Positions 1-14,023 of a stretch of 64,000 nt of DNA are shown here, piece after piece. The position numbers were made by a program, and so were the translations under genes. Each line of letters begins with the position of its first letter. The stretch's first letter is position 1. Under the pieces are notes generated by a model that was given only the letters and a program-made list of their open reading frames with translations, was not told the DNA's origin and did no database searches. Source of the DNA: an uncultured Alsobacter sp. GTDB lineage: Bacteria; Pseudomonadota; Alphaproteobacteria; Rhizobiales; Beijerinckiaceae. The DNA lies in contig CAZJCW010000001.1 in assembly GCA_964544365.1 (NCBI GenBank), forward strand, positions 14,127 through 78,126, given 5' to 3'.

Positions 1-235
1 CGAGCCCCAGCGCCGAAGCCAGCGGCCGCGCGGTGTCCATGGTCCGGGCGAAAGGGCTCGAGTAGATGCCGCTGATCGGCTCCAGCCCGAGCCGCGTCGC
101 GACCGCAGCGGCTTCGCGATGTCCGGCTTCGTCCAGCGGCTCATCACTCCAGCCGAGATAGCGCTGGGCATTGCCAGCGGTTCGACCGTGCCGCACAAGA
201 AAAAATCGGGCTGCACGGGTGGGGCCGGCGGTCAC
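1..235 (-). CDS. histidine phosphatase (phosphoglycerate-mutase-like) family protein, 5' part only; gene runs off the left edge
   Basis: The minus-strand frame from GTG 235..233 reads VTAGPTRAARFFLVRHGRTAGNAQRYLGWSDEPLDEAGHREAAAVATRLGLEPISGIYSSPFARTMDTARPLASALGL with no stop to the window edge. It has the RHG catalytic motif of the His-phosphatase fold. The start forms a GTGA overlap with the stop (232..234) of the upstream kinase-like gene. The ORF is absent from the supplied track because it is truncated. Confidence 0.75.
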   Translation of the reverse strand, partial: MTAGPTRAARFFLVRHGRTAGNAQRYLGWSDEPLDEAGHREAAAVATRLGLEPISGIYSSPFARTMDTARPLASALGL

Positions 236-1530
236 TGGCGTGTCCCCGACACGGCTTCCGTCAGCGGCCTGGCAAGCCGGAGAGCTTCGTCCTCCAGACG
301 GATGAAGGCCGGTTCGTCGACCCTGTCCTTCTTCAGCATCAGCGCAAGGTAGTAGATGGACGCGCATGTCCGGTGCCAGGCGAGCCGAAGCGGGTCGAGT
401 GGCGCGAGATGCCTTGCGTAGCTGTCGATATAGACCCCGATCGACGCGCGCCCCTGGGGATCGTCCAGCGCGGCAGAGCCGTCCCCGGAGAATGCCGGAA
501 CATCGTAGCTGAGCGAGGCGAGAAAGATCGCGATGTCACGGTACGGGTCCCCGGCGTGACACAGATCGAAGTCGGTGATCGACCACAGGTCATCGCTCGC
601 GAGCGTCTGCGAGCACACGAGGTCGCCGTGGCAGAACGACGGTTGCGGATCGGAGGGGCGTGTACGATCGAGCAGATCGCCGAGCCCAGCGAGGCGGGCG
701 AAGCTGGCCGGGCGATAGAGTCCAAGCAGGCCGAGGTCGAAGCGGGCCTGTTCCATCCACGTCCGGTTGCCGATCCCGGAGAGACCCTCGACCGGCAATC
801 GGTGCAGATGCGCATGCAATTCGCCCAGCCTTGCAAACGCATCCGTCGACCCGGCTGTGATCGTGTCCGCGACGTCATCGCCCGGCAGGACACTCTGGAA
901 GTAGAGCGACTCGTCCTGATCGAAGGCGAGCGGACGGGAGACCGACAAGGGCAGGCCGGACTTCGCGACGGCATCCGCAACGCGACCGATGAGCGCGTGG
1001 GCCGTTGCGGCACGCGAGCGGCGCTTCAGCTTCGCGATGCAAGGGCCGTGGCGGGGATGGTCGATGGACAGCGTCAGTCGCCGCAGCGGGACATAGCGCA
1101 GGACGCGACCGCGAACCCCGTCCGACGACCAACGGTTCAGAACCGTCTCAACCGAGGTCAGATAGGGATCCGCCGGGAAGCTCAGCCAGTCGATTTGCCC
1201 CGACTTCGCAGACCAGGACAGCGTTTCCGCGGAAAAGCCAAAAGGTCGATCCGGGCGACGGGTCCGCTGGGCGCTCCAGTACGCACGGTCCAGCGTCCAG
1301 CCGCCGGGACCCGCAACGGCCTTCAACTCCGCATGGACAAGAGCGATGGTCGCGCCCGGCTCGAGTCGCGCGGCAATCGCTTCCCGCAAGTCCTGGACGA
1401 CGTCGAAAAAGGGATGGTTCGGTCCGACGAACTCGAAAGGCCGGGCTGCCATGGCGAAAGCGGTACGATCCTGACCCGGTCTGCGGGATCCAAAACAATG
1501 CAACCATAACAGGCGCATCCCTCTTGCCAA
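232..1530 (-). CDS. phosphotransferase family protein (APH/choline-kinase fold), kinase A
   Basis: 432-codon ORF with a TTG start at 1530; in-frame ATGs at 1518 and 1452 are alternative starts. It carries FCHGDLVCSQ (catalytic loop with Gln where the Brenner motif usually has Asn) and ITDFDLCHAGDPYRDIA (DFD metal-binding motif). Confidence 0.8.
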   Translation of the reverse strand: MARGMRLLWLHCFGSRRPGQDRTAFAMAARPFEFVGPNHPFFDVVQDLREAIAARLEPGATIALVHAELKAVAGPGGWTLDRAYWSAQRTRRPDRPFGFSAETLSWSAKSGQIDWLSFPADPYLTSVETVLNRWSSDGVRGRVLRYVPLRRLTLSIDHPRHGPCIAKLKRRSRAATAHALIGRVADAVAKSGLPLSVSRPLAFDQDESLYFQSVLPGDDVADTITAGSTDAFARLGELHAHLHRLPVEGLSGIGNRTWMEQARFDLGLLGLYRPASFARLAGLGDLLDRTRPSDPQPSFCHGDLVCSQTLASDDLWSITDFDLCHAGDPYRDIAIFLASLSYDVPAFSGDGSAALDDPQGRASIGVYIDSYARHLAPLDPLRLAWHRTCASIYYLALMLKKDRVDEPAFIRLEDEALRLARPLTEAVSGTRQ

Positions 1531-1598
1531 GGTCGTGCCCGGCGAGATTGGATGCGCGACGCTCGCGGCGTCACGTCTGCGGGGTTTTCGAAGAGTGC

Positions 1599-2762
1599 AT
1601 GATGCCCGCCCCCCGCGTCGCCCATGTCATCAACAGCATCGGCCTAGGCGGCGTTCCGGAGAGCGTATTTCATCTGCTCCGCACGATGCCTACGGGCGGC
1701 TGCGAGCCCTTGCTGTATGTTCTCCGCGGCCCCGATCCCGCCGACGAGCATCGCGCAGCCCGGCTTGCAAGGTTCACGCAGATCGGCTTGCCGGTGACGC
1801 TGGGTGCACCGGACGACGGGCGGCTGTCCATGATCGCACAGTTGCACGCGTGGTTGACGCGCGAAGCGCCGGATATCCTGCACAGCCACTCCTACAAGCC
1901 CAACCTTCATGCCGGGCTCGCAGCAGGCACCCTGCGGCCCAAGGGACTCAAGGTCATCGCCCACTATCACAACCAATACGACGCCCAGTGGGATCGCGAT
2001 GGCACCCTCGGCTTGAACGCGGCGCTGGCCGTGCAGTGCGATCGCGTCCTTGCATGTTCGAGGACGGTAGGAGACCACGTTCGTGAGCGCCTCGGTGTTC
2101 CGTCCGAGCGCCTGGCCATCATACCCAACGGTGTCGACGACGTGCGTTTCTCGCAGGGTCCTTCGCGGAGCGTGGCGCGGGCAACGATGGGCCTGCCGCA
2201 AGACCGCCCGATCATCGGTCTGGTGGGCCGCATCAGCGAGCAGAAGGGTCACGAGGATCTCTTGCGGGCCGCCGTCGCGATTCGGGCCGCGATCCCAGAC
2301 GTCCTGATCGTCTTCGCCGGAGCTCCCGACGCTCCGGAACGGCTTGCCTCCGTCCAAGCAATGGTCGCCTCGCTCGGCCTCGACGGCGCCGTTCAATTCG
2401 CGGGGTTCGTGGACGAGATTCCGACGTTCTACGCGGCTCTGGACGTGCTCGCGGCGCCCTCGCGATGGGAAGGGTTCGGCCTCATGCTCGTCGAGGCCAT
2501 GACGGCAGGCGTCCCCATCGTCGCGACGGCGGTGGGCGCCATCCCCGAAGTCGTGGGCGATGACGGCGCTGCGCGCCTCGTGGCGCCGGGCGCGATCGAC
2601 GCGCTTTCCGGAGCGCTCATCGACGTCCTGACAGACACGACTTTGGCGCATCGGCTTGCATCGGCAGGCCGGCGGCGTGCCGCCCTCTTCACCTGGGACC
2701 GGTCTGCCGCGCGCCTCGCGGAGATCTACGCCGCCGTGTGCGACGAAGGGGCGGCGTCTTGA
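1599..2762 (+). CDS. glycosyltransferase family 4 (GT-B fold), GT4-a
   Basis: ATG 1599 (or 1602) lies inside ORF 1005..2762. The upstream 198 codons are Arg/Pro/Ser-rich and overlap the divergent gene, so I excluded them. Motifs: GRISEQKGHEDLL and EGFGLMLVEAMTAGVPIVATAVGAIPEVV (E-x7-E). Confidence 0.88.
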   Translation: MMPAPRVAHVINSIGLGGVPESVFHLLRTMPTGGCEPLLYVLRGPDPADEHRAARLARFTQIGLPVTLGAPDDGRLSMIAQLHAWLTREAPDILHSHSYKPNLHAGLAAGTLRPKGLKVIAHYHNQYDAQWDRDGTLGLNAALAVQCDRVLACSRTVGDHVRERLGVPSERLAIIPNGVDDVRFSQGPSRSVARATMGLPQDRPIIGLVGRISEQKGHEDLLRAAVAIRAAIPDVLIVFAGAPDAPERLASVQAMVASLGLDGAVQFAGFVDEIPTFYAALDVLAAPSRWEGFGLMLVEAMTAGVPIVATAVGAIPEVVGDDGAARLVAPGAIDALSGALIDVLTDTTLAHRLASAGRRRAALFTWDRSAARLAEIYAAVCDEGAAS

Positions 2763-4048
2763 ACGTCGACTGGACCTACGACGCGGTTCCGCCACTGGGG
2801 GCGTCGGCGGAGTTTCCGCAAAGAGTCTTCCTCGGTCGGACGGCCTTCGTCGAGGCGGCCCTTGTGGAGGCAGGCCTCATTCCACAGGCGGGCGCATCGC
2901 TGGCATTGGCGAACGTCTGGTACGTTCCTGGGCGCTCTCTCAGCGCGATCTATGAAGGGCAAAGCGAATCCCGGCCACTGCTCGCGACCTTGCACTTCGC
3001 GAGATTTCCGTCCGAGGGCGCCGGGCCGGACGTGACCGGCGGGACCTGGGTTCCGGCTCTCGGCGCCAGTGTCCTGCGGTTCCCGCATGACCCGGGGCTT
3101 CCCGATCTTCCCGTTCTCATCGGGCTTGACGCTTTGCCTCCGCTCGGTGCGACGCCGGCGGCCTCCTGGAGGATGTTGAGCTACCTGCCCGGCGCACGCT
3201 GCACGATTGCCTACGCCGATTCATCGACCCGCATGATCGCGGTCGGGAAGCTGCAGAACGGAGCACCCGCGACCCACCGCCGGATGCAGCAGCTCTGGCA
3301 GTCTTCGGCCCGGGACTTTGCAATGGCCGAGCCGCTGGCGGTGGATGAAGCGCACGCCATCCGGTGGGAGCGCTTCGTACCGGGAGAAAGAGTGGACCGC
3401 ATCATGGACGACTCGCTGCGCGCTGCCGCGACCGCGTCCGCGATGTCGGCGCTGGCGTGTCTCCACGGTCTCCCGCTCGATGGTCTTCCCCTCCGCAACG
3501 GTCGCGTCGTGTTCGAGCGCGCGGCCCGCAAGGTGGCCAAGCGCGTCCGGGTCGCGCTTCCGGAACTGGACCGGTCCGCCACCCTCCTGTGCGAGGACCT
3601 GGCAAGGCGGCTGCCGTCGATGGAAGGGCGCCCGACCGTCACGCTGCACGGCGACTTCCACACGGCGAACATCCTCTTCGACGGCCGGACGCCCGGCTTC
3701 ATCGACCTCGACGAACTCGCGCTCGGGGATCCGGCCTACGATCTGGCCCTGTTTGCCAGCCGTCTCCTTCTCGTCGGCCTGGTGAATCCGGACAGGGCAG
3801 GGCAGGCTGCCGAACTGGCGCAGGCTCTTCCGGCTCTCTATGCGCAGGCCGGCGGCCAGCCCATTCGAGACGACGTGTTCGCGTGGTACGTGGCCACGCT
3901 TCTGCTCGGTCGGCAGGTGAAGACCTGCATCCGCCATTGTGCGCCGGAGTTGGGCAAACTTGGCGCGACCCTGCTGGCGTGGGCGCATGACACCCTGCGC
4001 GCGGGCCGGGTCGACGCCGCGCTGTATTCGACCGGTTCTCCCGCCTAG
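2738..4048 (+). CDS. phosphotransferase family protein (APH fold), kinase B
   Basis: GTG 2738 overlaps the GT4-a stop (2762) by 25 nt. It carries TLHGDFHTANILF (canonical HxDxxxxN) and FIDLDELALGDPAYDLALF. The N-terminal region shares an FP-x-DP-x-L segment with kinase A. Confidence 0.8.
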   Translation: MRRRGGVLNVDWTYDAVPPLGASAEFPQRVFLGRTAFVEAALVEAGLIPQAGASLALANVWYVPGRSLSAIYEGQSESRPLLATLHFARFPSEGAGPDVTGGTWVPALGASVLRFPHDPGLPDLPVLIGLDALPPLGATPAASWRMLSYLPGARCTIAYADSSTRMIAVGKLQNGAPATHRRMQQLWQSSARDFAMAEPLAVDEAHAIRWERFVPGERVDRIMDDSLRAAATASAMSALACLHGLPLDGLPLRNGRVVFERAARKVAKRVRVALPELDRSATLLCEDLARRLPSMEGRPTVTLHGDFHTANILFDGRTPGFIDLDELALGDPAYDLALFASRLLLVGLVNPDRAGQAAELAQALPALYAQAGGQPIRDDVFAWYVATLLLGRQVKTCIRHCAPELGKLGATLLAWAHDTLRAGRVDAALYSTGSPA

Positions 4049-5835
4049 CCCGCTTCCACGGCGTCGATCTGGAAGAGGTTGCAGTAGTAGCCGTTCCGGG
4101 CGACCAGTTCGGCGTGCGTGCCCTGCTCGACGATCTTTCCGTTTCGCAGGACGACGATGAGGTCCGCGTGGCGAACGGACTGGAGGTGATGCGCGATGAG
4201 CACCGTCGTCTTGCCCTCCATCGTCGTCCGCAACGCCGTACGGATCTGAGCTTCGGATTCGGCGTCGATGGCCGACGTCGGTTCGTCCATCAGCAGGATG
4301 TCGGGGTTCTTGATGAGCGCTCGCGCCAGCGACAGGCGCTGCCGCTGGCCGCCCGAGAGGCTCGCCCCGCTCTCGCCGACGATCTCGTCGTAGCCGTCGG
4401 GCAGGCGGGAGATGAAGTCATGCGCTGCGACGGCGCGTGCGGCGGCCTCGATGTCCGCGTCCGTGGCATCCGGCTTTCCGTAGGCGATGTTCTCTCGAAT
4501 GCTCGCACCGAAGAGCAGGGCATCCTGCAGCACGACGCCGATGCGCTGGCGATACGATTCCCTGTTGAGCGTTCGGATGTCGATCCCGTCGACGGTGACC
4601 TGCCCCTCCGTCGGGTCGTAAAGCCGGACGATCAGGTTCGCGAGCGTGGACTTGCCCGCTCCGGACGCTCCGACAAGGGCGATGAAGCGGCCCTGGGGAA
4701 GGGTCAGCGAGAGATCGTCGATCACCGGCTTTCCGGGCTCATACCAGAACGAGACGTTCCTGAATGCGATCTCGCCGCGCAGGGACGCGACGGGCCTGGC
4801 ATCGGGCAGGTCCACCATGTCGGGCTTCGTCTCGAGCAGTTCACGGATCCGGTCGGCGCTGGCGCTGGCCTTCGAGAACCGGGCCGAGAGGCGCGCCATG
4901 ATGCGGACCGGCTTGTACATGTCGACGATGTAGGACGAGAAGACCAGGAGGTCTCCCGGCGACATCCGCCCCCGCATGACCTGGATGCCGCCGAACAGCA
5001 TGACGGTGGCGAGGCCGATGGCGCGCGCAACCTCGACGATCCGCGCCACGGACGCCTCCATCCGCGCCATCCGGATGCTTTCCTCCTTCGACAACGAGCT
5101 CTGAGTCTCGAACCGCGAACTCTCGTACCGCTCGCGCCCGAAGGCCTGCACCAGCGAGACCGCCTTCAGGACCTCCATGAGGCGGGACGTCAGCGCGCTC
5201 TCCCGGTAGCGCTGCTGCCGCGCGGAGACCCGCATGCGCGCCAGCACCAGATAGAGCCCGCCGAACAGGACGGGGAAGGACACGATGACGATGAGCGCCA
5301 GCGTGGAATCGATGATCCACATCACGACGCACATGCCGAGGACCGTCAGCGCATGGGTGGCGAATGCCAGCACGTACTCCGAGTAGACGTCCTTCAGCGT
5401 GTTGGTATCGGCGACGATCTTGTTCATCAGTTCGCCGCTGCGGGAGCGGACATGGAACGAGAGCGAGAGCTGCTGGAGGTGGTTGAAGAGGGCGTTCCTC
5501 AGGCGGAACGTGATCTCGAACCCGATGCGCGATGTCACGTAGATCTGCGCATAGGCGAACGTCGCCGAGAGAAGCGCGAGGACGACGATCGCGCACGCGA
5601 GAAGCGACAGGGCCAGGATGCTTGAGGGCTGCACCCAGGCGAGGTACGTGGCCCAGGCGGCCGGGACTGCCTTGCCGTAGAGCACGTGGTCGAAGATGAG
5701 CTTCAGGGGCCACGGAAGCGCCAGCGCCACCAGCGTCGAGCCGGCCACGCAGAACAGCGCAAGGGCGATCGCGCTGCGCGCTTGCCAGAGGCATCCGAGG
5801 ACGATCTGGCGGAATGTCTGTGCCTGCGTCCGCAT
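4045..5835 (-). CDS. ABC exporter, fused permease/ATPase half-transporter (MsbA/type-I exporter-like)
   Basis: ATG 5835 is preceded by GGAGG. The N-terminal half is hydrophobic. Walker A is GASGAGKST, the signature is LSGGQRQRLSLARAL and Walker B is ILLMDEPTSAID. The track ORF extends to 5958, but the extra 41 codons are Arg-rich and lack an RBS. Confidence 0.9.
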   Translation of the reverse strand: MRTQAQTFRQIVLGCLWQARSAIALALFCVAGSTLVALALPWPLKLIFDHVLYGKAVPAAWATYLAWVQPSSILALSLLACAIVVLALLSATFAYAQIYVTSRIGFEITFRLRNALFNHLQQLSLSFHVRSRSGELMNKIVADTNTLKDVYSEYVLAFATHALTVLGMCVVMWIIDSTLALIVIVSFPVLFGGLYLVLARMRVSARQQRYRESALTSRLMEVLKAVSLVQAFGRERYESSRFETQSSLSKEESIRMARMEASVARIVEVARAIGLATVMLFGGIQVMRGRMSPGDLLVFSSYIVDMYKPVRIMARLSARFSKASASADRIRELLETKPDMVDLPDARPVASLRGEIAFRNVSFWYEPGKPVIDDLSLTLPQGRFIALVGASGAGKSTLANLIVRLYDPTEGQVTVDGIDIRTLNRESYRQRIGVVLQDALLFGASIRENIAYGKPDATDADIEAAARAVAAHDFISRLPDGYDEIVGESGASLSGGQRQRLSLARALIKNPDILLMDEPTSAIDAESEAQIRTALRTTMEGKTTVLIAHHLQSVRHADLIVVLRNGKIVEQGTHAELVARNGYYCNLFQIDAVEAG

Positions 5836-5996
5836 TACCGGTGCCTCCACCCGTCCTTGCCCGTGCTCGTGGCAGCCCGGACCTGACCGCGTGGCGCCCC
5901 GCGCCCGGAAGCGGCGCCGGGCGTGCATTCTTGCGTAGCCGCAAAGAGTGAATTGCAAAAACTCAAAGTTGGCTCCAGCAGGCCTTTTGGCCCAGT

Positions 5997-6062: not shown

Positions 6063-6064
6063 GT

Positions 6065-6084
6065 TGTGACAGTTTCGTGTCACA
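6065..6084. promoter_or_regulatory. perfect 7-bp inverted repeat TGTGACA-N6-TGTCACA (candidate operator)
   Basis: tgtgaca (6065..6071), gtttcg, tgtcaca (6078..6084). It lies 2 bp downstream of the 11-bp repeat array, and its right end is 45 bp upstream of the ATG at 6130. Confidence 0.6.
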
Positions 6085-6129
6085 GCCGGCCCGGACGATG
6101 TTTGAACGGGCGACTGAGGGGCGAATACC

Positions 6130-8052: not shown

Positions 8053-9317
8053 CGAGACCCATGTCCAACCGATCCATCGTGATGTACTCGCCGGACACCG
8101 TCGGTCTCGGCCACGTCCGCCGGAATTCAACGATCGCGACCCATGTCGTCGAGATGAACCCGGACTGCAGCGTCGTGCTGCTGGTGGGTAGCGCCGCCGG
8201 TCCCGTCTTCGCGTTGCCGCCCGGCGTGGACACCATCAAGCTGCCTTCCGTCCAGAAGCTCAGCAGCGGCGACTGGTGCGCGCGCAGCCTGTCGATCTCC
8301 AACCAGGTTGCCCAGCGTGTCCGGTCCGGCCTGATCCGCGAAACCATCGCGACCCTTCGCCCCGACATTCTTCTGGTCGATCATCTGCCCTGCGGCATAT
8401 GGAGCGAACTGCTGCCCGTCTTCGAGTTCATCCGGAGCCGGCGCCTGCCGACGCGGATCGTGCTCGGCCTGCGGGACATCCTGGACGATCCGCAGCGCGT
8501 GTCTTCCCGCTGGAGCCGGGAAGGGACGTACGACGTCGTCCGGCGGTACTACGACAGCGTGTTCGTCTATGGCGATCGCGCCGTGTTCGACTCCGCGGCG
8601 GCCTATGGTCTGAGCGAGGAAATCTGCAGCGACGTTCGCTTCATGGGCTACGTCACCGGTGAGACGAATTCTTCGCCGGCAGCCAGCGGCCGGCAATCCG
8701 GCGGCCGTGACGAGAAGTTCGTCGTGGTCACCGCCGGCGGGGGTTACGACGCCTACCCGATGATGGCTGCGTCACTCGAGGCGCTGTCCGTCGTGCCAAG
8801 GTCGCAGCGCATCAGGGCTGTCGCCGTCGCGGGCCCGCTGATGCCGGACGAATACTTCGCTCGCCTCAGGGCAATGGCCGACGCTTCCGGCATCGAGCTC
8901 GTCCGGTTCACGTCGGAGCTCAAGACGATGCTGCGGCGCGCCGACCTCGTCGTGACGATGGGCGGATACAACTCGATGCTCGAGATCACCGCACTCGGCA
9001 AGGCGACGATCGTCATACCGCGCTCCGGACCGAGCATGGAGCAGACCGTTCGCTCGCAGATGTTCGAGCAGATGGGCTTCTCCCGGCACGTCCCGCTCGA
9101 GGCGGCCACGCCCGAGTTCCTGTCGCAGGCAATCGTCGCCGGACTCGCATCGCCGCCGCGCCCCTATGCGACCTTGGGCCTCGACGGTGCCCGCAACGCA
9201 GCCGCGGCACTGGTCGGAAAGCTCGCGCAGGCCTCTGGCCGGCGCTCGCAACTCCGCGCCTCGCGTTCGCGGCTGGTGCGGTCCGGCAGGGTGGAGAGCG
9301 TCCATGCTCATCCCTGA
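8049..9317 (+). CDS. GT28-like (COG4671-type) predicted glycosyltransferase
   Basis: GTG 8049 forms a GTGA overlap with the upstream stop; ATG 8061 is an alternative start. Motifs: IVMYSPDTVGLGHVRRNSTIA, VVTAGGGYDAYP, ADLVVTMGGYNSMLEITALGKATIVIPR. Confidence 0.8.
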   Translation: MTRPMSNRSIVMYSPDTVGLGHVRRNSTIATHVVEMNPDCSVVLLVGSAAGPVFALPPGVDTIKLPSVQKLSSGDWCARSLSISNQVAQRVRSGLIRETIATLRPDILLVDHLPCGIWSELLPVFEFIRSRRLPTRIVLGLRDILDDPQRVSSRWSREGTYDVVRRYYDSVFVYGDRAVFDSAAAYGLSEEICSDVRFMGYVTGETNSSPAASGRQSGGRDEKFVVVTAGGGYDAYPMMAASLEALSVVPRSQRIRAVAVAGPLMPDEYFARLRAMADASGIELVRFTSELKTMLRRADLVVTMGGYNSMLEITALGKATIVIPRSGPSMEQTVRSQMFEQMGFSRHVPLEAATPEFLSQAIVAGLASPPRPYATLGLDGARNAAAALVGKLAQASGRRSQLRASRSRLVRSGRVESVHAHP

Positions 9318-10560
9318 CAGGGCCGGAAAAGTCGGCGCAGGACTTCGGGTCGGCTATGTCCTGAAGCGGTTTCCGCGCCTGAGCCAGACCTTCGTGCTTG
9401 CGGAGATTCTCGAACTCGAGCGCCGCGGTGTCGAGGTGCGCGTGGCGTCGCTCCTGCCGCCCCTCGATGACGCGGACAAGGTCGACACCCGTGCCCTGCG
9501 CGCGAAAGTGGACGTCCTGCCAGACGGCTACGCCGTGTGGCCGAACGAAGACGGGCTTGAAGGCCTCGTTGCCGGAAAGACGGAGCGCGCGCGGGAACGG
9601 ATCGCCCATTGGTCGGCCGCACTGGCAGAGCTCTGGGGCTCCGAGGGAATCGACTGCCTGCACGCCCATTTCGGATCCGACGCGACCACCGTCGCGCTTC
9701 TGGCCGGACGCAGGATCGCGCGGCCCGTGTCGTTCACGGCGCATGCCCGCGACATCTTCAAGCACTACGCAACCGAGGACGAGGACCGGCTCGCACGCCG
9801 CTCGAAGATGGCGCTGGCCGATGCCGTCGTCACCGTGTCCGACTTCAACAAGTCCTATCTCGCCGCGATGGCCGGGCCGTCCTCGGCCGGGAAGATCGAA
9901 CGCATCTACAACGGGATCGATCTTGCCGCGATCAGACCGGGCCCCGCCGCAAAGCGGGAACAGGGCCTGATCTTGGCCGTCGGCCGCCTCATCGAGAAGA
10001 AGGGCTTCGGCGATCTCATCGCTGCTTGCGCCGTCCTCCGCTCGGGCGGTGTCGATTTCCGCTGCGAGATCGTCGGCGAGGGCCCGCTGCGCGAAAGCCT
10101 GGAGGCGCAGGTGCGTGCCTGCGGGCTCGAGGACGACGTTTCGTTCGTCGGCGCTGTTCCGCCCGCCGAAGTCTTGCGCCACATGCGGCGAGCGAGCGTC
10201 TTTGCCCTGCCCTGCGTCGTGGCCGCCGACGGCGATCGGGACGGCTTGCCGACCGTGCTTCTCGAGGCGCTGGCGAGTGGGCTTCCCGCGGTCACGACCC
10301 GGGTGGCTGGAACGCCCGAAATCATCACCGACGGGATCACCGGCCGGATCGTCGATCCAGCCGATCCCGCTCGGCTAGCCGAGGCTCTCGCGAGCCTTCT
10401 GATGCAACCGGATCTTGCCGGACGCTGCGGTCACCAGGGCCGCGCCAAGGCCGAGCGTGATTTCGACATCACCACCAATGTGGGTGCTCTTCATGACCTC
10501 TTCACCCGATACACCAGCCAGTTCGATCGCCGAGCTTCGGCAGCGCTTGCGGCAGAGTGA
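9304..10560 (+). CDS. glycosyltransferase family 4, GT4-b
   Basis: ATG 9304 lies inside ORF 9166..10560 and overlaps the upstream stop (9317) by 14 nt. Motifs: RVGYVLKRFPRLSQTFVLAEILELERRG, GRLIEKKGFGDLI, DGLPTVLLEALASGLPAVTTRVAGTPEIITDGITG (E-x7-E). Confidence 0.88.
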   Translation: MLIPDRAGKVGAGLRVGYVLKRFPRLSQTFVLAEILELERRGVEVRVASLLPPLDDADKVDTRALRAKVDVLPDGYAVWPNEDGLEGLVAGKTERARERIAHWSAALAELWGSEGIDCLHAHFGSDATTVALLAGRRIARPVSFTAHARDIFKHYATEDEDRLARRSKMALADAVVTVSDFNKSYLAAMAGPSSAGKIERIYNGIDLAAIRPGPAAKREQGLILAVGRLIEKKGFGDLIAACAVLRSGGVDFRCEIVGEGPLRESLEAQVRACGLEDDVSFVGAVPPAEVLRHMRRASVFALPCVVAADGDRDGLPTVLLEALASGLPAVTTRVAGTPEIITDGITGRIVDPADPARLAEALASLLMQPDLAGRCGHQGRAKAERDFDITTNVGALHDLFTRYTSQFDRRASAALAAE

Positions 10561-10570: not shown

Positions 10571-12067
10571 GTGAGCACGCGACGCAAGGGTCCACTGACT
10601 GTCGTCATGGTCGTTTCGCTCGGCCTTGCCGGCGGGTGGGGTGTCTTCGCGATGTCAGGCCATCGCCTCTCGGCCAGCCCCGCCTTGGCGTCGGGCCCGG
10701 AGGGAGGCGGCATGTCCGCCTTCGAGACGGCCTCGGTGACACGTGGCATCGTTCGTCGTCGCATCCAGACGGCAGGGCCCATCAAGCCGGTCGTGACCGC
10801 GCAGGTCGGATCCCAGCTCTCAGGGCAGGTCCGCGAGATCCGGGCAGACTTCAACACGGTCGTACAGGCCGGCGACGTTCTCGCGGTGCTCGACGCGAAG
10901 ACCTTCGCCGCCCGCATCGACCAGGCCATGGCCGAACTCGACATGGCGAAGGCCGCGCTGACGAACCAGACCGCCAACCACGACAAGTCGGTCGCAAACC
11001 TCCGCGTCGCCGAGCGCAACAGCCAGCGCCTCAAGGATCTCAACTCGCGAGGCGTCGGCTCGGAGGCGCAACTCGACTCCGCGCAGCGGGATGTCGAGGT
11101 CGCGCGCGCCGAGATGATCGTGTCGAAGGCGCAGGTCGACAGCGCCCGCGCCAATGTCGTGCAGCGCCAGGCCGCCTTGTCGCAGATGACGATCGATCTG
11201 GAACGGACAGAGATCCGCGCGCCGATCGCAGGCATCGTGATTTCACGTTCCGTCGAGATCGGGCAGACCGTGGCGGCCAGCCTGTCGGCTCCCGAACTCT
11301 TCCGCATCGCCCAGGATCTGCGTCAGGTTCGCATCGATGCGCAGGTGAACGAAGCCGACATCGGCGGCGTCTCCGTCGGCAACCCGGCGACGTTTCGCGT
11401 CGATGCCCACCCCGGGCGCACCTTCTCCGGAACAGTGTCCCAGGTGAGGCTTGCCGCGACGGAAGAAAACAACGTCGTCACCTATACCGTCGTGATCGAA
11501 GCCGAGAACCCGGACCTCAAGTTGTATCCCGGCATGACGGCGACGGTGGAGATCGAGACCGCCCGGCGTCAGGACGTGCTCCGGCTCCCGGCCGAGGCAC
11601 TGCGCTTCCGCCCGAGGCAGGTGACACCGGCCATGACGGCCGGCGACAAGTCGGAGCGTCGCGAAGTGCAGCTCGAGCGTCTCGCGAAGAAGCTCTCCCT
11701 GACGCCGCAGCAGCTGGCTGCCGCGAAGGAGCGTCTCACTGCGATGGAACAGGCCAAGACCAAGTCGGCGGGCGCCGAAGGGGAAGCCAAGGCCAAGCGC
11801 GTCGGTTCGACCGATAGGCTGGCGATGGTGGTCGAGCCGCTGCTGAACGAACAGCAGCGCACCCTCTTGTCCGCGTGGCGCGAAGAACGCGAGGACACGA
11901 ACGCGACCGCGGTTTGGGTCGTCGGAAACGACGGTGTTCCGATCCGGCGCCCGATCAGGATCGGCCTGGTCGACGGCACCCACGCCGAACTGATCGGCAC
12001 GCCGATCACCGAGGACGAGAAGGTGATCGTCAGGGCGAGGACGCGGACCCCGAAGGATCGGCCATGA
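10571..12067 (+). CDS. HlyD-family membrane-fusion (periplasmic adaptor) protein, MacA/DevB-like, with an internal insertion
   Basis: GTG 10571 lies 10 nt after the GT4-b stop; the start is uncertain because the ORF opens at 10415. There is an N-terminal TM anchor (LTVVMVVSLGLAGGWGVFAM), a lipoyl-like segment (GQVREIRADFNTVVQAGDVLAVLD), a long coiled coil and TEIRAPIAGIV. A Lys/Glu/Gln-rich insertion of about 93 codons lies at 11621..11899. Confidence 0.85.
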   Translation: MSTRRKGPLTVVMVVSLGLAGGWGVFAMSGHRLSASPALASGPEGGGMSAFETASVTRGIVRRRIQTAGPIKPVVTAQVGSQLSGQVREIRADFNTVVQAGDVLAVLDAKTFAARIDQAMAELDMAKAALTNQTANHDKSVANLRVAERNSQRLKDLNSRGVGSEAQLDSAQRDVEVARAEMIVSKAQVDSARANVVQRQAALSQMTIDLERTEIRAPIAGIVISRSVEIGQTVAASLSAPELFRIAQDLRQVRIDAQVNEADIGGVSVGNPATFRVDAHPGRTFSGTVSQVRLAATEENNVVTYTVVIEAENPDLKLYPGMTATVEIETARRQDVLRLPAEALRFRPRQVTPAMTAGDKSERREVQLERLAKKLSLTPQQLAAAKERLTAMEQAKTKSAGAEGEAKAKRVGSTDRLAMVVEPLLNEQQRTLLSAWREEREDTNATAVWVVGNDGVPIRRPIRIGLVDGTHAELIGTPITEDEKVIVRARTRTPKDRP

Positions 12068-12804
12068 ACGCCCATGTCCGAACGCAGACGGCACTCGTCG
12101 AAGCGCGCGACCTGGTGAAGTCCTACACCGTAGGCACTCACACGATCGAGGCCCTGAGAGGCGTCACCCTGTCCATCGGCGCCGGTGATTTCGTCGCGAT
12201 CATGGGGACATCGGGGTCGGGCAAGTCGACCCTGATGAATCTCGTCGGGACGCTGGACCGCCCCTCCGGTGGCGTCCTGATGATCGGGGGGCACGAGGTG
12301 TCCCGTCTTGACGACGACGGCCTCGCGGGCGTTCGAAACCGCCTCATCGGGTTCGTGTTCCAGCACTTCAATCTGTTGCCCCGCACGTCGGCCCTCGAGC
12401 AGGTCATGCTGCCGCTGCGCTATCGCCGCGTCCCGGCCAGGCAGGCGGAGGCAGAAGCGCGCGCGAGACTGGCTCAGGTCGGTCTGGGAGACCGCACGGA
12501 CCACCGACCGCAGCAATTGTCGGGTGGCCAGCAGCAGCGCGTCGCCATCGCCCGCGCACTGGTCGGCGACCCACTCCTCCTGCTGGCCGACGAGCCCACG
12601 GGCGCGCTCGATTCGCGGACATCCGCCGAGATCATGAAACTTCTCGTCGATCTCAACGACCAGGGCGTCACGATCGTCCTCGTGACCCACGATCCCACGG
12701 TGGCGACCTACGCGAAGCGCTGCATCACCATGCGTGACGGAGCCATCGTCGAGGATCGCGCCGTATCGCGCCGAGAACTGGAGACGAGTCATGCGGTTGG
12801 CTGA
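12064..12804 (+). CDS. ABC transporter ATP-binding protein (MacB/LolD/DevA-type)
   Basis: ATGA overlap with the adaptor stop. Walker A is GTSGSGKSTL, the signature is LSGGQQQRVAIARAL and Walker B is [12 protein letters not shown]. Confidence 0.93.
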   Translation: MNAHVRTQTALVEARDLVKSYTVGTHTIEALRGVTLSIGAGDFVAIMGTSGSGKSTLMNLVGTLDRPSGGVLMIGGHEVSRLDDDGLAGVRNRLIGFVFQHFNLLPRTSALEQVMLPLRYRRVPARQAEAEARARLAQVGLGDRTDHRPQQLSGGQQQRVAIARALVGDPLLLLADEPTGALDSRTSAEIMKLLVDLNDQGVTIVLVTHDPTVATYAKRCITMRDGAIVEDRAVSRRELETSHAVG

Positions 12805-14023
12805 CCTCTTTCTCGTGGCCTTGGCAGCCCTGCGGGCAAATCTTCTGCGCAGTCTCCTCACCACGCTCGGCATCATCATCGGCGTTGCCTCGGTCATCGT
12901 GATGGTGGCCGTGGGCGAGGGCGCACGCAGCGAGGTCGAGCGGCAGATCGCCAGCCTCGGCACCAACATCCTTCAGGTTCAGCCGGGATCGAGCCGGGTG
13001 CGTGGCCGTTGGGCGGGAAGCGGGACGCGGCTGCCTTTCTCCGAGCAGGATCTCCAGGCGATCCGCTCAGGCGTCCCCGCGGTCGCCGCCATCTCCGGTG
13101 TCCTGACCAACGTGGCGCCGATCGTGAACGGGCCGACGAACTGGCTGAGCAGCATCGAAGGCGTGAGCGACGACTACCTGAATGTCAGGACGTGGGATCT
13201 CGCCGGCGGTCGCTTCTTCGGCGCTGACGAGGAGGCGGCCGGCGCGCGGATCGCCGTCATCGGCCAGACCGTCGCGACCCAGCTCTTCGGCGACACGGAT
13301 CCGATCGGAGCCGAAGTCCGCATCATGAATGTGCCGTTCGAGATCGTCGGCGTGCTCGAGCGGAAGGGCCAGTCGACGTCCGGAAAGGACCTCGACGATG
13401 TGGTTCTCGTCCCCGCTTCGACGGCCCGCTCGAAGATGTCGAAGCCCAACAAGAACGTCCCGCGTCAGGTGGGCAACCTGGTCATCAAGGTCACCGAAGG
13501 CGAGGCGCTCGACGAAGCGAAGGCCGAGATCGAGGATGTCCTGCGCAAGCGCCGGAGAAGTCAGGCCAACGGCGAGGACGACTTCTTCGTTCGGGACCTC
13601 GCGGACTACAACCGGACGCGTACGGCAACGCAGCAGACTTTGGGTCTTCTGCTCGGTGCAACGGCCCTGATCTCGCTTCTCGTCGGCGGCATCGGCATCA
13701 TGAACATCATGCTTGTGTCCGTGTCGGAGAGGACGAAGGAGATCGGACTGCGGATGGCCGTCGGCGCGCGGCGGGGAGACATCCTGCGGCAATTCCTCAC
13801 GGAATCCGTGGTGTTATGCCTCATGGGGGGATTTGCCGGCGTGATTGCCGGGGTGGGTGCCACCATCCTGTCGGCCACGGTCGCCGGCTGGCCCGTGCTG
13901 ATCAGCCCGGCCATCGTCGCAACGGCCCTCGCAGCCGCCGCTGCAACAGGATTGCTGTTCGGCTTCCTGCCCGCCCGGCGTGCAGCAGGCATGAGTCCCA
14001 TCGACGCCCTGCGGGCCGACTGA
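12791..14023 (+). CDS. ABC transporter permease, FtsX/MacB type with periplasmic domain
   Basis: ATG 12791 overlaps the ATPase stop by 14 nt. N-terminal TM (RSLLTTLGIIIGVASVIVMVAVG), then a periplasmic domain of about 220 aa, then the FtsX module GGIGIMNIMLVSVSERTKEIGLRMAVGARRGDILRQFL. Confidence 0.9.
   Translation: MRLADLFLVALAALRANLLRSLLTTLGIIIGVASVIVMVAVGEGARSEVERQIASLGTNILQVQPGSSRVRGRWAGSGTRLPFSEQDLQAIRSGVPAVAAISGVLTNVAPIVNGPTNWLSSIEGVSDDYLNVRTWDLAGGRFFGADEEAAGARIAVIGQTVATQLFGDTDPIGAEVRIMNVPFEIVGVLERKGQSTSGKDLDDVVLVPASTARSKMSKPNKNVPRQVGNLVIKVTEGEALDEAKAEIEDVLRKRRRSQANGEDDFFVRDLADYNRTRTATQQTLGLLLGATALISLLVGGIGIMNIMLVSVSERTKEIGLRMAVGARRGDILRQFLTESVVLCLMGGFAGVIAGVGATILSATVAGWPVLISPAIVATALAAAAATGLLFGFLPARRAAGMSPIDALRAD

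What the first reader, a model, noticed from the sequence alone, without database searches (positions are those of the whole stretch)
1..14023. Multi-kinase / multi-glycosyltransferase locus with two dedicated ABC exporters: candidate phospho-glycoconjugate assembly-and-export system
Twelve adjacent genes make up the locus. Reading left to right: histidine phosphatase and APH-fold kinase A (minus strand); GT4-a and kinase B (plus strand); an MsbA-type exporter (minus strand, convergent); then GT28-like::kinase C fusion, GT28-like, GT4-b, HlyD adaptor, ABC ATPase and FtsX permease (plus strand). That totals four GTs, three kinase domains, one phosphatase and two exporters.

The window shows no nucleotide-sugar synthesis genes, no Wzx/Wzy/Wzz, no polyprenyl-phosphate priming transferase, no Kps-type genes and no regulator in this locus. 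A GT-then-kinase dyad occurs twice, once as overlapping genes (2738/2762) and once as a single fused polypeptide. That is Rosetta-stone-type evidence that glycosyl transfer and phosphorylation act on the same substrate. From 6130 to 14023 all junctions overlap or are 10 nt or less, which ties the exporter to the enzymes in one probable operon.

I do not recognise this combination as a named pathway (LPS core, Wzy or ABC-dependent EPS, cyclic glucan, or sugar-phosphate synthase/phosphatase for compatible solutes). My working hypothesis is iterative glycosylation and phosphorylation of a small lipid or metabolite acceptor. The phosphatase would trim the product and the two pumps would export it.
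Basis: partly seen in the sequence, partly recalled or inferred. Interest (0 to 1): 0.8.

Follow-up and report, generated by a model that had tools for sequence, protein, structure and literature searches.

The report
Uncharacterised kinase–glycosyltransferase assembly and export locus
This is a real, tightly packed gene cluster, conserved across more than 60 bacterial species, that pairs sugar-adding enzymes with kinases and two export pumps; it most likely makes and secretes a phosphorylated sugar compound that nobody has yet identified.

Summary
Window 1-14023 carries eleven genes: a truncated histidine phosphatase, three APH-fold kinases (one fused to a GT-B glycosyltransferase), two GT28/GT1-like and two GT4 glycosyltransferases, an MsbA-like ABC exporter, and a MacA/MacB-type pump. 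All pass Pfam cut-offs and keep their catalytic motifs.

The full arrangement recurs at 47-71% identity. A core of GT28-like, APH, GT28-like, GT4, GT4, MsbA-like and APH recurs in about 60 species. The fused GT::kinase is split into two adjacent genes in most relatives.

No protein reaches any NCBIfam equivalog cut-off, and no paper or PADLOC model covers the cluster.

New points:
- Relatives carry a cytoplasmic heparinase II/III-like gene next to the phosphatase, where this window ends.
- Relatives pair the MsbA-like exporter with either a MacB pump or an AlgE-like porin, never both. This suggests the two pumps work in series (inner membrane, then outer membrane).
- A conserved array of six 11-bp-phased YGTCAG repeats, resembling a Pho box, sits in the divergent promoter.

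Best reading: soluble cytoplasmic assembly of an anionic phospho-glycoside or oligosaccharide, then two-step export. The product is unknown.

The parts
1..235 (-). N-terminal ~78 codons of a histidine phosphatase (His_Phos_1); the gene runs off the window
   Evidence: The RHG motif is read directly. The GTG start overlaps the kinase A stop as GTGA. My His_Phos HMM scores it 1.4e-30. Full-length orthologues of 211-213 aa occur in L001 and L002.
232..1530 (-). APH-fold kinase A (probable start ATG 1452, 406 aa)
   Evidence: Pfam APH 2.7e-16, 60.5 bits against a cut-off of 23.2. HGDLVCSQ and TDFD motifs present. The orthologue in L001 is 406 aa.
1599..2762 (+). GT4 glycosyltransferase a (retaining GT-B)
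   Evidence: Pfam Glycos_transf_1 1.5e-37 and Glyco_transf_4 3.8e-26. EX7E motif 'EGFGLMLVE'. Nearest solved relatives are sucrose-phosphate synthase 6e-26, MshA 7e-23 and maltose-1-phosphate synthase GlgM 5e-22.
2759..4048 (+). APH-fold kinase B (start TTG 2759 overlapping the GT4-a stop; alternative GTG 2738)
   Evidence: Pfam APH 2.3e-19. HGDFHTAN and IDLD motifs. The AF2 model has pLDDT 91.5. Foldseek top hits are APH(3''), APH(2''), PsiK, choline kinase and methylthioribose kinase.
4045..5958 (-). MsbA/ChvA-like type-I ABC exporter (fused TMD-NBD half-transporter); start between 5835 and 5958
   Evidence: Pfam ABC_membrane 1.7e-43 and ABC_tran 2.4e-37. Below every NCBIfam cut-off: MsbA 424/602, MsbA_rel 447/780, glucan exporter 372/733. 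Walker A and LSGG present.
5998..6085 (+). Candidate operator in the divergent promoter: six direct YGTCAG(C) repeats at an 11-bp period (5998-6057), then TGTGACAGTTTCGTGTCAC
   Evidence: TRF finds period 11 with 5.5 copies. The pattern YGTCA-N6-YGTCA gives 5 hits, all here, against 0.71 expected. The array is conserved in the orthologous intergenic regions of L001, L005, L002 and L004. No sigma-70 consensus promoter lies in 5850-6200.
6130..8052 (+). Fusion protein: GT-B (GT28/GT1-like) glycosyltransferase domain (~aa 1-340) plus APH-fold kinase C (~aa 345-620)
   Evidence: Pfam Glyco_tran_28_C 8.7e-6 and APH 7.1e-9. The AF2 model has pLDDT 86.8 and pTM 0.86. Foldseek top hits are YjiC, OleI/OleD, SpnG and GtfD. 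Invariant motifs GGGG, TxGYNSxLE, RTxDDQ, HGDxHxxQ and DLDD.
8049..9317 (+). Stand-alone GT28/GT1-like GT-B glycosyltransferase, a paralogue of the fusion's N-terminal domain
   Evidence: Pfam Glyco_tran_28_C 2e-10. 26% identical to the fusion GT domain, E 2e-13. MurG equivalog score 25.9 against a cut-off of 250. Many homologues carry an N-terminal receiver domain.
9304..10560 (+). GT4 glycosyltransferase b
   Evidence: Pfam Glycos_transf_1 1.3e-35. Best NCBIfam hit is EpsE, 166 bits against a cut-off of 400. DX7E variant 'DGLPTVLLE'.
10571..12067 (+). MacA/HlyD-type periplasmic adaptor (alternative start ATG 10493)
   Evidence: Pfam HlyD_D23 2.6e-19. TIGR01730 RND_mfp 140.7 bits against a cut-off of 94.9. 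MacA equivalog 120 against 342. One N-terminal TM helix.
12064..12804 (+). MacB-type ABC ATPase (separate polypeptide)
   Evidence: Pfam ABC_tran 2.5e-30. The best NCBIfam hit is the MacB N-terminal half, 2.3e-75. ATGA overlap with the adaptor stop.
12791..14023 (+). MacB-type permease (MacB periplasmic core domain plus FtsX)
   Evidence: Pfam MacB_PCD 3.7e-52 and FtsX 5.5e-20. 14-nt overlap with the ATPase gene.
14034..14052 (.). GC-rich hairpin (CGCGCCTC-GAA-GAGGCGCG) just after the last gene, between convergent genes; possible operon end
   Evidence: Read from the sequence. It has no T-run and so is not called by the terminator scan.

Best explanation
The locus is a dedicated assembly-and-export system for a phosphorylated, and therefore anionic, glyco-product.

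**Assembly (inferred).** Soluble enzymes build the product in the cytoplasm.
- Two GT1/GT28-like GT-B enzymes and two GT4 enzymes add sugars from housekeeping nucleotide sugars.
- Three APH-fold small-molecule kinases phosphorylate sugar hydroxyls of the acceptor or of intermediates, roughly one kinase per glycosyl transfer.
- The histidine phosphatase removes at least one of these phosphates. Relatives also carry a cytoplasmic heparinase II/III-like protein that may process intermediates.
- The conserved sub-module APH, GT4, phosphatase, APH looks like the classical 'phospho-acceptor synthase plus phosphatase' logic of sucrose-phosphate, mycothiol and glucosylglycerate synthesis, preceded and followed by a kinase.

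**Export (inferred).** The MsbA/ChvA-like homodimeric exporter moves the product across the inner membrane. The MacA/MacB-type tripartite pump, using an unlinked TolC-like duct, then expels it from the periplasm across the outer membrane.

**Regulation (inferred).** The fusion operon, and probably the divergent exporter gene, are driven by a response regulator of the OmpR/PhoB type. It would bind the six 11-bp-phased YGTCAG repeats, and may be PhoB itself.

**What is shown and what is not.**
- Shown: gene content, intact motifs, co-conservation, the fused/split relationship, conservation of the operator, and mutual exclusivity of the outer-membrane components.
- Inferred: the substrate class, the order of steps, serial export, and the identity of the regulator.
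For: - **Domains and motifs.** All domains and catalytic motifs are present.
- **Synteny.** Complete synteny at 47-71% identity. HMM-based architectures of 67 loci show the recurring string GT28-like, APH, GT28-like, GT4, GT4, MsbA-like, APH.
- **Minimal module.** APH, GT4, His_Phos, APH occurs in the same order in Sphaerotilus mobilis, Ca. Manganitrophus and L069. In Sphaerotilus it shares a co-directional, near-contiguous gene string with MsbA-like, adaptor, MacB and a TolC-like OEP.
- **Fused versus split.** The GT and kinase halves are fused in some relatives and separate in most.
- **Soluble enzymes.** Neither the phosphatase nor the heparinase-like protein has a signal peptide, and none of the GTs or kinases has a convincing TM helix.
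- **GT4-a relatives.** Its nearest solved relatives are SPS, MshA, GlgM and BshA, all with soluble phosphorylated or acidic acceptors.
- **Phosphatase relatives.** PspA, PhoE and glucosyl-3-phosphoglycerate phosphatase.
- **Kinase B fold.** Nearest to sugar- and small-molecule kinases.
- **Fusion GT fold.** Nearest to GT1 enzymes that glycosylate small molecules.
- **Export components.** An MsbA-like gene is adjacent in 51 of 67 loci. An AlgE-like porin occurs in 11, a MacB permease in 7, and both together in none. An arginine-lined AlgE-type porin suits an anionic cargo (my own knowledge).
- **Operator.**. Pho boxes are defined as 11-nt direct-repeat units with a 7-nt conserved core, CTGTCAT in E. 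coli (PMC4415409, PMC3131613).
Against: - No product is known, and nothing here shows that sugars are the kinase substrates.
- All structural and sequence matches of the kinases are generic APH-fold hits (E about 1e-8 to 1e-10, TM 0.4-0.67).
- GT4 acceptor specificity cannot be read reliably from nearest PDB relatives. GT4-b gives a generic ranking.
- In 49 of 67 related loci no outer-membrane component was seen within the fetched flanks, so the exclusivity argument rests on 18 loci.
- The heparinase-like gene cannot be confirmed for this genome, because the window ends inside the phosphatase gene.
- Making a phosphate-rich product under PhoB control would be counter-intuitive. The regulator may be a different OmpR-family protein.
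- The window contains no pst or pho gene against which to compare the motif.
Confidence: 0.5

Rival explanations
1. Phospho-glycolipid route. The enzymes act at the cytoplasmic face on a membrane lipid (a diacylglycerol, phosphatidylinositol-like, sphingolipid or polyprenol acceptor made elsewhere). The MsbA-like protein flips the phosphorylated glycolipid. The MacB-type pump extracts it from the inner membrane and passes it to the outer membrane or the medium, as DevBCA-HgdD does for heterocyst glycolipids and LolCDE does for lipoproteins.
For: - The exporter's best NCBIfam matches include MsbA (8.7e-127), HepA and PglK.
- The DevB, DevA and DevC models are hit weakly.
- GT4 relatives in the PDB list include PimA and PimB, which act on phosphatidylinositol.
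- GT-B enzymes are often peripheral membrane proteins without TM helices (my own knowledge).
Against: - No acyltransferase, lipid synthase or polyprenyl-phosphate transferase occurs in any of the 67 loci surveyed.
- The exporter is equally similar to the soluble-glucan exporter ChvA/NdvA (6.5e-111).
- Relatives use an AlgE-type porin, which carries soluble anionic polymers, in place of MacB.
- GT4-a ranks soluble-acceptor enzymes above PimA and PimB by 5-9 orders of magnitude.
Confidence: 0.2
2. Peptide or protein modification. The kinases and GTs decorate Ser/Thr/Tyr residues of a ribosomal peptide or a secreted protein encoded elsewhere or in an unannotated small ORF. The two ABC systems export it, as in many RiPP clusters.
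For: - Weak hits of kinases A and B to the class V lanthipeptide kinase LxmK (4e-7, 2e-5).
- The RiPP kinase TvaE is among the Foldseek hits for kinase B.
- The exporter also resembles the NHLP bacteriocin and HlyB exporters.
- MacB-type pumps export peptides such as enterotoxin STII (my own knowledge).
Against: - No precursor, lyase, cyclase or protease gene is seen, and no conserved small ORF. All junctions in the operon overlap, leaving no room.
- The LxmK scores are 24-29 bits against a cut-off of 315.
- Four GTs with three to five kinases and a histidine phosphatase are not a known RiPP layout.
- Heparinase-like and AlgE-like partners point to glycans.
Confidence: 0.08
3. Detoxification or self-resistance island. 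The kinases and GT1-like enzymes inactivate aminoglycoside, macrolide or similar xenobiotics by phosphorylation and glycosylation, and the MacAB-like and MsbA-like pumps expel them.
For: - The APH family includes resistance kinases. The best profile hit in the PDB is APH(3'')-Id, along with macrolide 2'-phosphotransferase.
- The GT28-like protein hits macrolide glycosyltransferase models weakly (1.9e-5, 4.4e-5) and OleI/OleD by fold.
- MacAB is a macrolide pump in E. coli (my own knowledge).
Against: - All resistance equivalog scores are far below cut-off: 20-33 bits against 205-400.
- Resistance enzymes are normally single genes, not operons of overlapping genes with a 1:1 kinase-to-GT ratio, a GT::kinase fusion, two GT4 enzymes, a phosphatase and a heparinase-like protein conserved over phyla.
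- Dedicated two-component systems and receiver-fused GTs in relatives argue for a regulated biosynthetic process.
Confidence: 0.05
4. Donor-activation variant. Some or all of the APH-fold kinases are anomeric sugar kinases, like maltokinase, NahK or AmgK. They would make sugar-1-phosphates that the adjacent GT-B enzymes use as donors or acceptors, which would explain the lack of nucleotide-sugar genes.
For: - Maltokinase and glucosamine kinase are among the profile and fold hits of kinase B.
- GT4-a is close to GlgM, whose acceptor is glucose-1-phosphate.
- No nucleotide-sugar genes occur in the locus.
Against: - These hits are weak: maltokinase 1.4e-3, and glucosamine kinase TM 0.37 with rmsd 14.
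- The fusion GT domain keeps the GT1/GT28 C-terminal nucleotide-sugar signature ending in an invariant DQ (interpretation from my own knowledge).
- Housekeeping UDP- and GDP-sugars would suffice.
Confidence: 0.12

Closest known systems
Phospho-acceptor synthase/phosphatase pairs built on GT4 enzymes (sucrose-phosphate synthase/SPP; MshA/MshA2 in mycothiol synthesis; GlgM maltose-1-phosphate synthase; GpgS/GpgP)
   Same: A retaining GT-B enzyme sits next to a phosphatase. GT4-a is nearest by sequence to SPS, MshA and GlgM. The phosphatase is of the same histidine-phosphatase branch as GpgP. All enzymes are soluble and cytoplasmic.
   Different: Those pathways make intracellular solutes or thiols, have no dedicated kinases and are not exported. 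Here the GT4 and phosphatase are flanked by two kinases and tied to two export systems and three further GTs. NCBIfam scores are far below the MshA and glycogen-synthase cut-offs (110/462, 121/302).
PvdE plus PvdRT-OpmQ (pyoverdine) and ChvA/NdvA (cyclic beta-glucan): an inner-membrane ABC exporter followed by, or separate from, a MacB-type tripartite pump (from my own knowledge)
   Same: A fused TMD-NBD type-I exporter carries a soluble cytoplasmic product into the periplasm, and a MacA/MacB/TolC-type pump then expels it from the periplasm. The exporter scores 6.5e-111 on the glucan exporter model. The pump scores on MacA and MacB models.
   Different: The cargo is not a siderophore or a cyclic glucan. 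No equivalog cut-off is reached. No outer-membrane factor lies in the window, although the Sphaerotilus relative encodes one in the cluster, in the same gene string.
WbdD and LPS-core kinases (WaaP, WaaY, KdkA) working with GT4 enzymes such as WaaG and with ABC exporters (from my own knowledge)
   Same: Protein-kinase-like-fold enzymes phosphorylate sugar residues of a growing glycan made by GT-B enzymes at the cytoplasmic face. An ABC transporter then exports the product.
   Different: Those glycans are built on lipid A-Kdo or undecaprenyl diphosphate and use Wzm/Wzt or genuine MsbA. There is no Kdo/WaaP-family (PF06293) hit and no ABC-2 transporter here. The 1:1 kinase-to-GT ratio and the GT::kinase fusion are not features of those systems.
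Fam20B xylose kinase in animal glycosaminoglycan-linker synthesis (PMC7948968)
   Same: A glycan kinase phosphorylates an intermediate, and this strongly stimulates the next glycosyltransferase (GalT-II). That is a precedent for phosphorylation gating stepwise glycosyl transfer. The heparinase II/III-like partner in relatives hints at uronic-acid or GAG-like chemistry.
   Different: A different kinase family in a eukaryotic Golgi setting. The analogy is one of logic only; nothing was tested.
Bacillus subtilis cotSA-cotS (a GT4 gene next to an APH-fold 'CotS family' kinase gene) (from my own knowledge)
   Same: A GT4-plus-APH-fold-kinase gene dyad. Kinase A hits TIGR02906 spore_CotS very weakly (8.8e-4).
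   Different: That is a spore-coat context with no exporters. The score is 18 bits against a cut-off of 173, so this is not a member.
PhoB-controlled exopolysaccharide clusters of rhizobia (galactoglucan/EPS II of Sinorhizobium meliloti; PMC3131613)
   Same: An alphaproteobacterial glycan cluster with ABC and membrane-fusion export genes, whose promoters carry Pho boxes made of 11-bp-phased direct repeats.
   Different: EPS II has no kinases and is phosphate-free. Here the repeat core is YGTCAG(C), not CTGTCAT, and PhoB binding is untested.

Membership tests
APH / phosphotransferase enzyme family (PF01636) | Profile score above the Pfam gathering cut-off, plus the HxDxxxxN/Q catalytic loop and a downstream Mg-binding Asp | tested here: met
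   Scores of 60.5, 70.6 and 36.2 bits against a cut-off of 23.2. Motifs HGDLVCSQ/TDFD, HGDFHTAN/IDLD and HGDLHAGQ/IDLD. Kinase B has an APH fold.
Aminoglycoside or macrolide resistance kinases (NCBIfam APH(3'), APH(3''), APH(6) equivalogs) | Score at or above the curated equivalog cut-off | tested here: not met
   19.5-33.5 bits against cut-offs of 205-400.
GT4 glycosyltransferases (PF00534 and PF13439) | Both GT-B halves above cut-off, plus the EX7E motif | tested here: met
   GT4-a 129.2 and 92.5 bits; GT4-b 122.9 and 59.7 bits. EX7E in GT4-a and a DX7E variant in GT4-b.
MurG (GT28, TIGR01133) | Equivalog score at or above 250 | tested here: not met
   21.7 bits for the fusion and 25.9 bits for the GT28-like protein. 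Only the generic Glyco_tran_28_C domain passes (26.3 and 41.4 bits against 22). The fold is nearest to GT1 small-molecule GTs.
MsbA lipid A flippase (TIGR02203 / NF008381) | Equivalog score at or above cut-off | tested here: not met
   424 against 602 and 360 against 867. Also below cut-off for MsbA_rel (447/780), HepA (419/725) and the ChvA-type glucan exporter (372/733).
MacAB-type tripartite ABC efflux pump | A membrane-fusion adaptor, an ABC ATPase, and a permease with a MacB periplasmic core domain plus FtsX; a TolC-like outer-membrane factor | tested here: inconclusive
   The architecture is met: RND_mfp 140.7 against 94.9, MacB_PCD 178 bits and FtsX 72 bits. The MacA and MacB equivalogs are not met (120/342; 254 and 268 against 966). 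The ATPase and permease are separate genes. No outer-membrane factor lies in the window, although one occurs in the Sphaerotilus relative.
ABC-transporter-dependent (Wzm/Wzt, KpsMT) or Wzx/Wzy polysaccharide pathways | An ABC-2 type permease or Wzx flippase/Wzy polymerase, a polyprenyl-phosphate priming transferase, and OPX/PCP proteins | tested here: not met
   None of these families was hit in 1-14023 or in the related loci inspected.
Pho box (PhoB operator) | Two or more 11-nt direct-repeat units with a 7-nt conserved core (CTGTCAT in E. coli), lying over the -35 region of a promoter without a -35 consensus; binding by phosphorylated PhoB (PMC4415409, PMC3131613) | tested here: inconclusive
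   An exact 11-nt period with six units and a core of C(T/G)GTCAG, matching 5-6 of 7 positions. Conserved in orthologous loci. No sigma-70 consensus nearby. PhoB binding and phosphate response cannot be tested here, and the window has no pst or pho promoter for comparison.
Known anti-phage defence systems (PADLOC) | A hit to a system-specific model | tested here: not met
   Only generic ABC-ATPase and FtsX-fold hits. The Pfam GT4-conflict match (42.3 bits against a cut-off of 26, far below the generic GT4 models on the same stretch) and the sub-threshold TCAD9 match (below its cut-off of 40) are fold-level.

The most novel reading that the evidence does not exclude
The cluster family encodes a previously undescribed way of making secreted glycans. 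Assembly is lipid-carrier-independent and stepwise in the cytoplasm, with each glycosyl transfer paired with, and licensed by, an ATP-dependent phosphorylation. The GT::kinase fusions and the 1:1 kinase-to-GT ratio point to this. The result would be a poly-phosphorylated oligosaccharide or glycoside. It would leave the cell by a new export combination: an MsbA-like ABC exporter plus either a MacB-type pump or an AlgE-type porin. Synthesis would be switched by two-component signalling, through receiver-fused GTs in relatives and a Pho-box-like operator here.
Probability: 0.25. Interest if true: 0.8.

Novelty: new variant of a known kind. Interest (0 to 1): 0.6.

Why it matters
If the model is right, bacteria from at least four phyla share an unrecognised route to a secreted, phosphate-bearing glyco-product. 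These include marine Rhodobacterales, Hyphomicrobiales, Arenicellales, Sphaerotilus, Ca. Manganitrophus and Ca. Entotheonella.

Such molecules could act as metal-binding or matrix polymers, signals, or phosphate-related public goods.

The locus also offers several things to study:
- natural GT::kinase fusions for work on coupled glycosylation and phosphorylation;
- receiver-domain-controlled glycosyltransferases;
- a testable case of serial ABC export (inner-membrane exporter, then a MacB pump or an AlgE-like porin).

Several carriers are in culture, so the hypothesis can be tested directly.

Tried and rejected
**Searches that found nothing.**
- PADLOC gave no defence-system match.
- Rfam and tRNA scans of the window found nothing.
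- Six literature searches found no paper on the cluster. The terms were COG4671; heparinase/APH/GT/histidine phosphatase; GT/kinase/MacB/MsbA; APH/alginate export; glycan kinase; and receiver-GT. One query was rejected for syntax.
- Yuan et al. 2006 (the Sinorhizobium Pho-box matrix) is not held.
- Looking up the window's own fusion protein to recover the left flank found nothing on record. I therefore could not confirm the heparinase-like gene in this genome or name the organism. The nearest relatives are a Hyphomicrobiales MAG and a 'Burkholderiales' MAG.
- Single-sequence PDB searches with the three kinases and the fusion gave only marginal APH hits.

**Artefacts caught.**
- Two 'unknown' plus-strand ORFs between the GT genes of Rhodobacterales loci proved to be antisense artefacts. 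The real genes are a minus-strand NtrC-type regulator and a histidine kinase.
- My first GC3-based gene picker was unreliable and was dropped.

**Ideas considered and set aside.**
- A sigma-54 reading of the conserved block in the kinase A / GT4-a intergenic region. The GG/GC spacing is not conserved between the window and L001.
- Horizontal acquisition. GC content in 1-14000 (0.66-0.685) matches the rest of the window.

Full report

Yes. Pfam scans of the ORFs at the stated coordinates reproduce every domain call:
- APH in 232-1530(-), 2738-4048(+) and the C-terminal half of 6130-8052(+).
- GT4 (Glycos_transf_1 plus Glyco_transf_4) in the ORFs ending at 2762 and 10560.
- Glyco_tran_28_C in the N-terminal half of 6130-8052 and in 8049-9317.
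- ABC_membrane plus ABC_tran in 4045-5958(-).
- HlyD-type adaptor, ABC ATPase, and MacB_PCD plus FtsX permease from about 10571 to 14023.

The first 235 bases encode, on the minus strand, the N-terminus of a histidine phosphatase ('FFLVRHGRTAGN...'). Its GTG start overlaps the kinase A stop.

Counting the fusion as two gives twelve modules.

Likely true starts are ATG 1599 (GT4-a), TTG 2759 (kinase B), ATG 9304 (GT4-b), GTG 10571 or ATG 10493 (adaptor), ATG 12064 (ATPase) and ATG 12791 (permease). These give overlaps of 4-14 nt or a gap of at most 10 nt throughout the plus-strand operon.

Catalytic motifs are intact in all three kinases, in both GT4 enzymes (a DX7E variant in GT4-b) and in both ATPases. 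The GT domains of the fusion family keep invariant GGGG, TxGYNSxLE and RTxDDQ motifs.

The rest of the window holds sugar-acid catabolism and import genes. It has no further kinase, GT, TolC-like or AlgE-like gene.

**2.

*The fusion family.* It is small. A word-indexed search of 5.8 billion proteins found 22 members. An exhaustive profile search of 1.84 billion representatives found 158 with E <= 1e-30. Among the 150 best hits listed:
- about 20 are full-length fusions;
- about 45 are stand-alone GT halves of ~335 aa;
- more than 70 are stand-alone kinase halves of ~275 aa.

In Silicimonas algicola, Ca. Manganitrophus and L069 the two halves are adjacent separate genes. The fused/split ('Rosetta stone') argument therefore holds.

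*Gene order.* Contigs carrying orthologues at 47-71% identity (L001, L002, L004, L005, L009) show the same order. Where the left flank is present, a heparinase II/III-like gene sits beside or near the phosphatase/kinase genes. In this window that position lies beyond base 1.

*Species spread.* A scan of one genome per GTDB species returned 62 loci. They come from:
- Alphaproteobacteria: Hyphomicrobiales, many Rhodobacterales including cultured strains, Rhodospirillales and Kiloniellaceae;
- Gammaproteobacteria: Arenicellales, Ectothiorhodospiraceae and Methylothermaceae;
- Burkholderiaceae;
- Ca. Entotheonella.

*Architectures.* HMMs built from the locus proteins gave a near-invariant string: GT28-like, APH, GT28-like, GT4, GT4, MsbA-like, APH.

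*Kinase B homologues.* They led to three further variants:
- Sphaerotilus mobilis: MsbA-like, adaptor, MacB, OEP, APH, GT4, His_Phos, APH, as one co-directional, near-contiguous gene string.
- Ca. Manganitrophus: GT28, GT4, APH, heparinase-like, APH, GT28, APH, GT4, His_Phos, APH, Alginate_exp.
- L069, which is similar.

Two conserved sub-modules thus emerge. One is APH, GT4, phosphatase, APH. The other is GT28-like(::)APH, GT28-like, GT4. An MsbA-like exporter is the common partner of both.

**3. What the parts look like**

- **Fusion.** It models confidently (pLDDT 86.8, pTM 0.86). Its GT domain is closest in fold to GT1-family enzymes that glycosylate small molecules (YjiC, OleI/OleD, SpnG, GtfD; E about 1e-9, TM 0.5-0.6).
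- **Stand-alone GT28-like protein.** It is a 26%-identical paralogue of that domain.
- **Kinase B.** The model has pLDDT 91.5. It is a generic APH-fold small-molecule kinase, nearest to aminoglycoside, choline, 4-hydroxytryptamine, homoserine and methylthioribose kinases. Sequence and profile searches of the PDB give nothing closer.
- **GT4-a.** It ranks sucrose-phosphate synthase (6e-26), MshA (7e-23), GlgM (5e-22) and BshA above PimA and PimB (1e-17). GT4-b ranks generically.
- **Phosphatase orthologue.** It is nearest to PspA, PhoE and glucosyl-3-phosphoglycerate phosphatase.
- **Heparinase-like orthologue.** It is distantly related to heparinase III (6e-15).
- **Location.** Neither the phosphatase nor the heparinase-like protein has a signal peptide. 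None of the GTs or kinases has a convincing TM helix.
- **Named families.** No protein reaches an NCBIfam equivalog cut-off. Only the generic RND_mfp adaptor model passes.

**4. Export**

The inner-membrane exporter is equally similar to MsbA, HepA, the ChvA-type glucan exporter and HlyB-type exporters. It reaches no cut-off.

Across 67 non-redundant loci:
- an MsbA-like gene abuts the GT genes in 51;
- an AlgE-like porin is present in 11;
- a MacB-type permease is present in 7;
- the two are never present together.

MacB-type pumps take substrates from the periplasm (my own knowledge; for example pyoverdine via PvdRT-OpmQ after PvdE, and enterotoxin STII). I therefore read the two 'exporters' as successive steps. 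The MsbA-like protein crosses the inner membrane. MacAB plus an unlinked TolC-like duct, or a porin in other lineages, crosses the outer membrane. An AlgE-type porin as the alternative fits an anionic, soluble cargo. This is inference: in 49 loci no outer-membrane component was seen within the fetched flanks.

**5. Regulation**

The 172-nt divergent region between the exporter and the fusion gene contains six direct YGTCAG(C) repeats at an exact 11-bp period (5998-6057). An inverted copy follows (TRF).
- The pattern YGTCA-N6-YGTCA occurs five times in the window, all here, against 0.71 expected.
- The array is conserved in the same intergenic region of L001, L005, L002 and L004, that is, down to 47% protein identity.
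- No sigma-70 consensus promoter is present.

Pho boxes are defined as tandem 11-nt units with a 7-nt core (CTGTCAT in E. coli). They control EPS II synthesis in Sinorhizobium (PMC4415409, PMC3131613). The array is therefore a candidate site for PhoB or another OmpR-family regulator. This is a lead, not a demonstration.

More distant relatives carry their own signalling parts:
- an NtrC-type regulator plus a large histidine kinase on the opposite strand in Rhodobacterales;
- a HisKA_3 kinase plus a LuxR-type regulator in Hyphomicrobiaceae;
- very commonly, a receiver domain fused to the GT28-like enzyme.

**6. Mechanism proposed**

Soluble cytoplasmic GT-B enzymes and APH-fold kinases alternate to build a phosphorylated glycoside or oligosaccharide. 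The sub-module kinase, GT4, phosphatase, kinase resembles phospho-acceptor synthase/phosphatase pathways extended by kinases. The GT::kinase fusion couples a further transfer to a phosphorylation. The product is exported in two steps.

Whether the phosphates persist, giving an anionic product, or act as transient licences for the next GT cannot be decided here. The Fam20B xylose kinase is a precedent for the second option (PMC7948968). I put about 0.5 on this overall reading. The rivals, with their confidences, are:
- a phospho-glycolipid (0.2);
- anomeric-kinase donor activation (0.12, a variant of the main reading);
- peptide modification (0.08);
- a detoxification island (0.05).

**7. Novelty and verdict**

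Every component belongs to a known family, and glycan kinases working with GT-B enzymes and ABC exporters have precedents (WbdD, WaaP). The combination does not match any characterised pathway that I could find. Its distinguishing features are:
- a near 1:1 ratio of kinases to GTs;
- GT::kinase fusions;
- a histidine phosphatase and a heparinase-like partner;
- an MsbA-like exporter paired with a MacB pump or an AlgE-like porin;
- two-component control.

The combination is conserved across phyla. I class it as a new variant of a known kind (a glycan assembly and export cluster), with interest 0.6.

Noticed in passing
window 14078-15838 (-): A 586-aa ORF predicted to have about ten hydrophobic segments and no Pfam hit. 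It lies in the lowest-GC stretch of the window (0.615) immediately after the locus. It is not present at this position in related loci, so it is probably not part of the system.
   Followed up: partly
L016 6653-8410; L021; P0098-P0162: In many relatives the GT28-like enzyme carries an N-terminal receiver (REC) domain. These proteins are ~525 aa and are annotated 'response regulator', for example in Denitrobaculum tricleocarpae. This would be a glycosyltransferase apparently switched directly by two-component phosphorylation. I found no characterised example.
   Followed up: partly
L042 11637-15333 (-), and about 40 other loci: An NtrC-type (REC, AAA+, HTH_8) regulator and an 828-aa histidine kinase are embedded on the opposite strand inside the Rhodobacterales version of the cluster. 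The plus-strand ORFs there are antisense artefacts that are nonetheless 'conserved' in tblastn.
   Followed up: yes
L001 9890-10001: The JGI gene call for the fusion orthologue P0002 (603 aa) starts too late. An upstream in-frame ATG at 9890 restores the conserved N-terminus (KFCVTGQSGLGH).
   Followed up: yes
L002 2753-7826: In this relative the kinase A and kinase B regions are broken into several short ORFs (183, 181, 388, 217 and 238 aa). This suggests frameshifts, assembly errors or decay of the left-hand sub-module.
   Followed up: no
window 1500-1600; L001 5230-5310; L002 4020-4085: The second divergent intergenic region (kinase A / GT4-a) has conserved blocks (CATAACA...CTTGCCAAGGTC...GGATGC) but no 11-bp repeat array. 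These are possibly promoter elements for kinase A.
   Followed up: partly
P0215: A 1549-aa protein matches the whole fusion profile in its first ~560 residues, with a second matched stretch. It may be a larger multi-domain fusion of this pathway.
   Followed up: no
window 19049-32052: An ordinary sugar-acid catabolic neighbourhood: a GntR/FCD regulator, two mandelate racemase/enolase-family dehydratases, a dihydroxy-acid/6-phosphogluconate dehydratase-family protein, and peptide/opine-type ABC importer genes. A GntR/FCD gene also lies near the locus in L001 and L002. This is probably shared synteny rather than function.
   Followed up: partly
L007 (Bacterium MnTg02), L068 (Ca. Manganitrophus noduliformans), L067 (Sphaerotilus mobilis): Several carriers of the cluster family are, to my knowledge, associated with manganese or iron oxidation or with sheath formation. 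This may be coincidence. It could also hint at a metal-binding anionic glycan.
   Followed up: no
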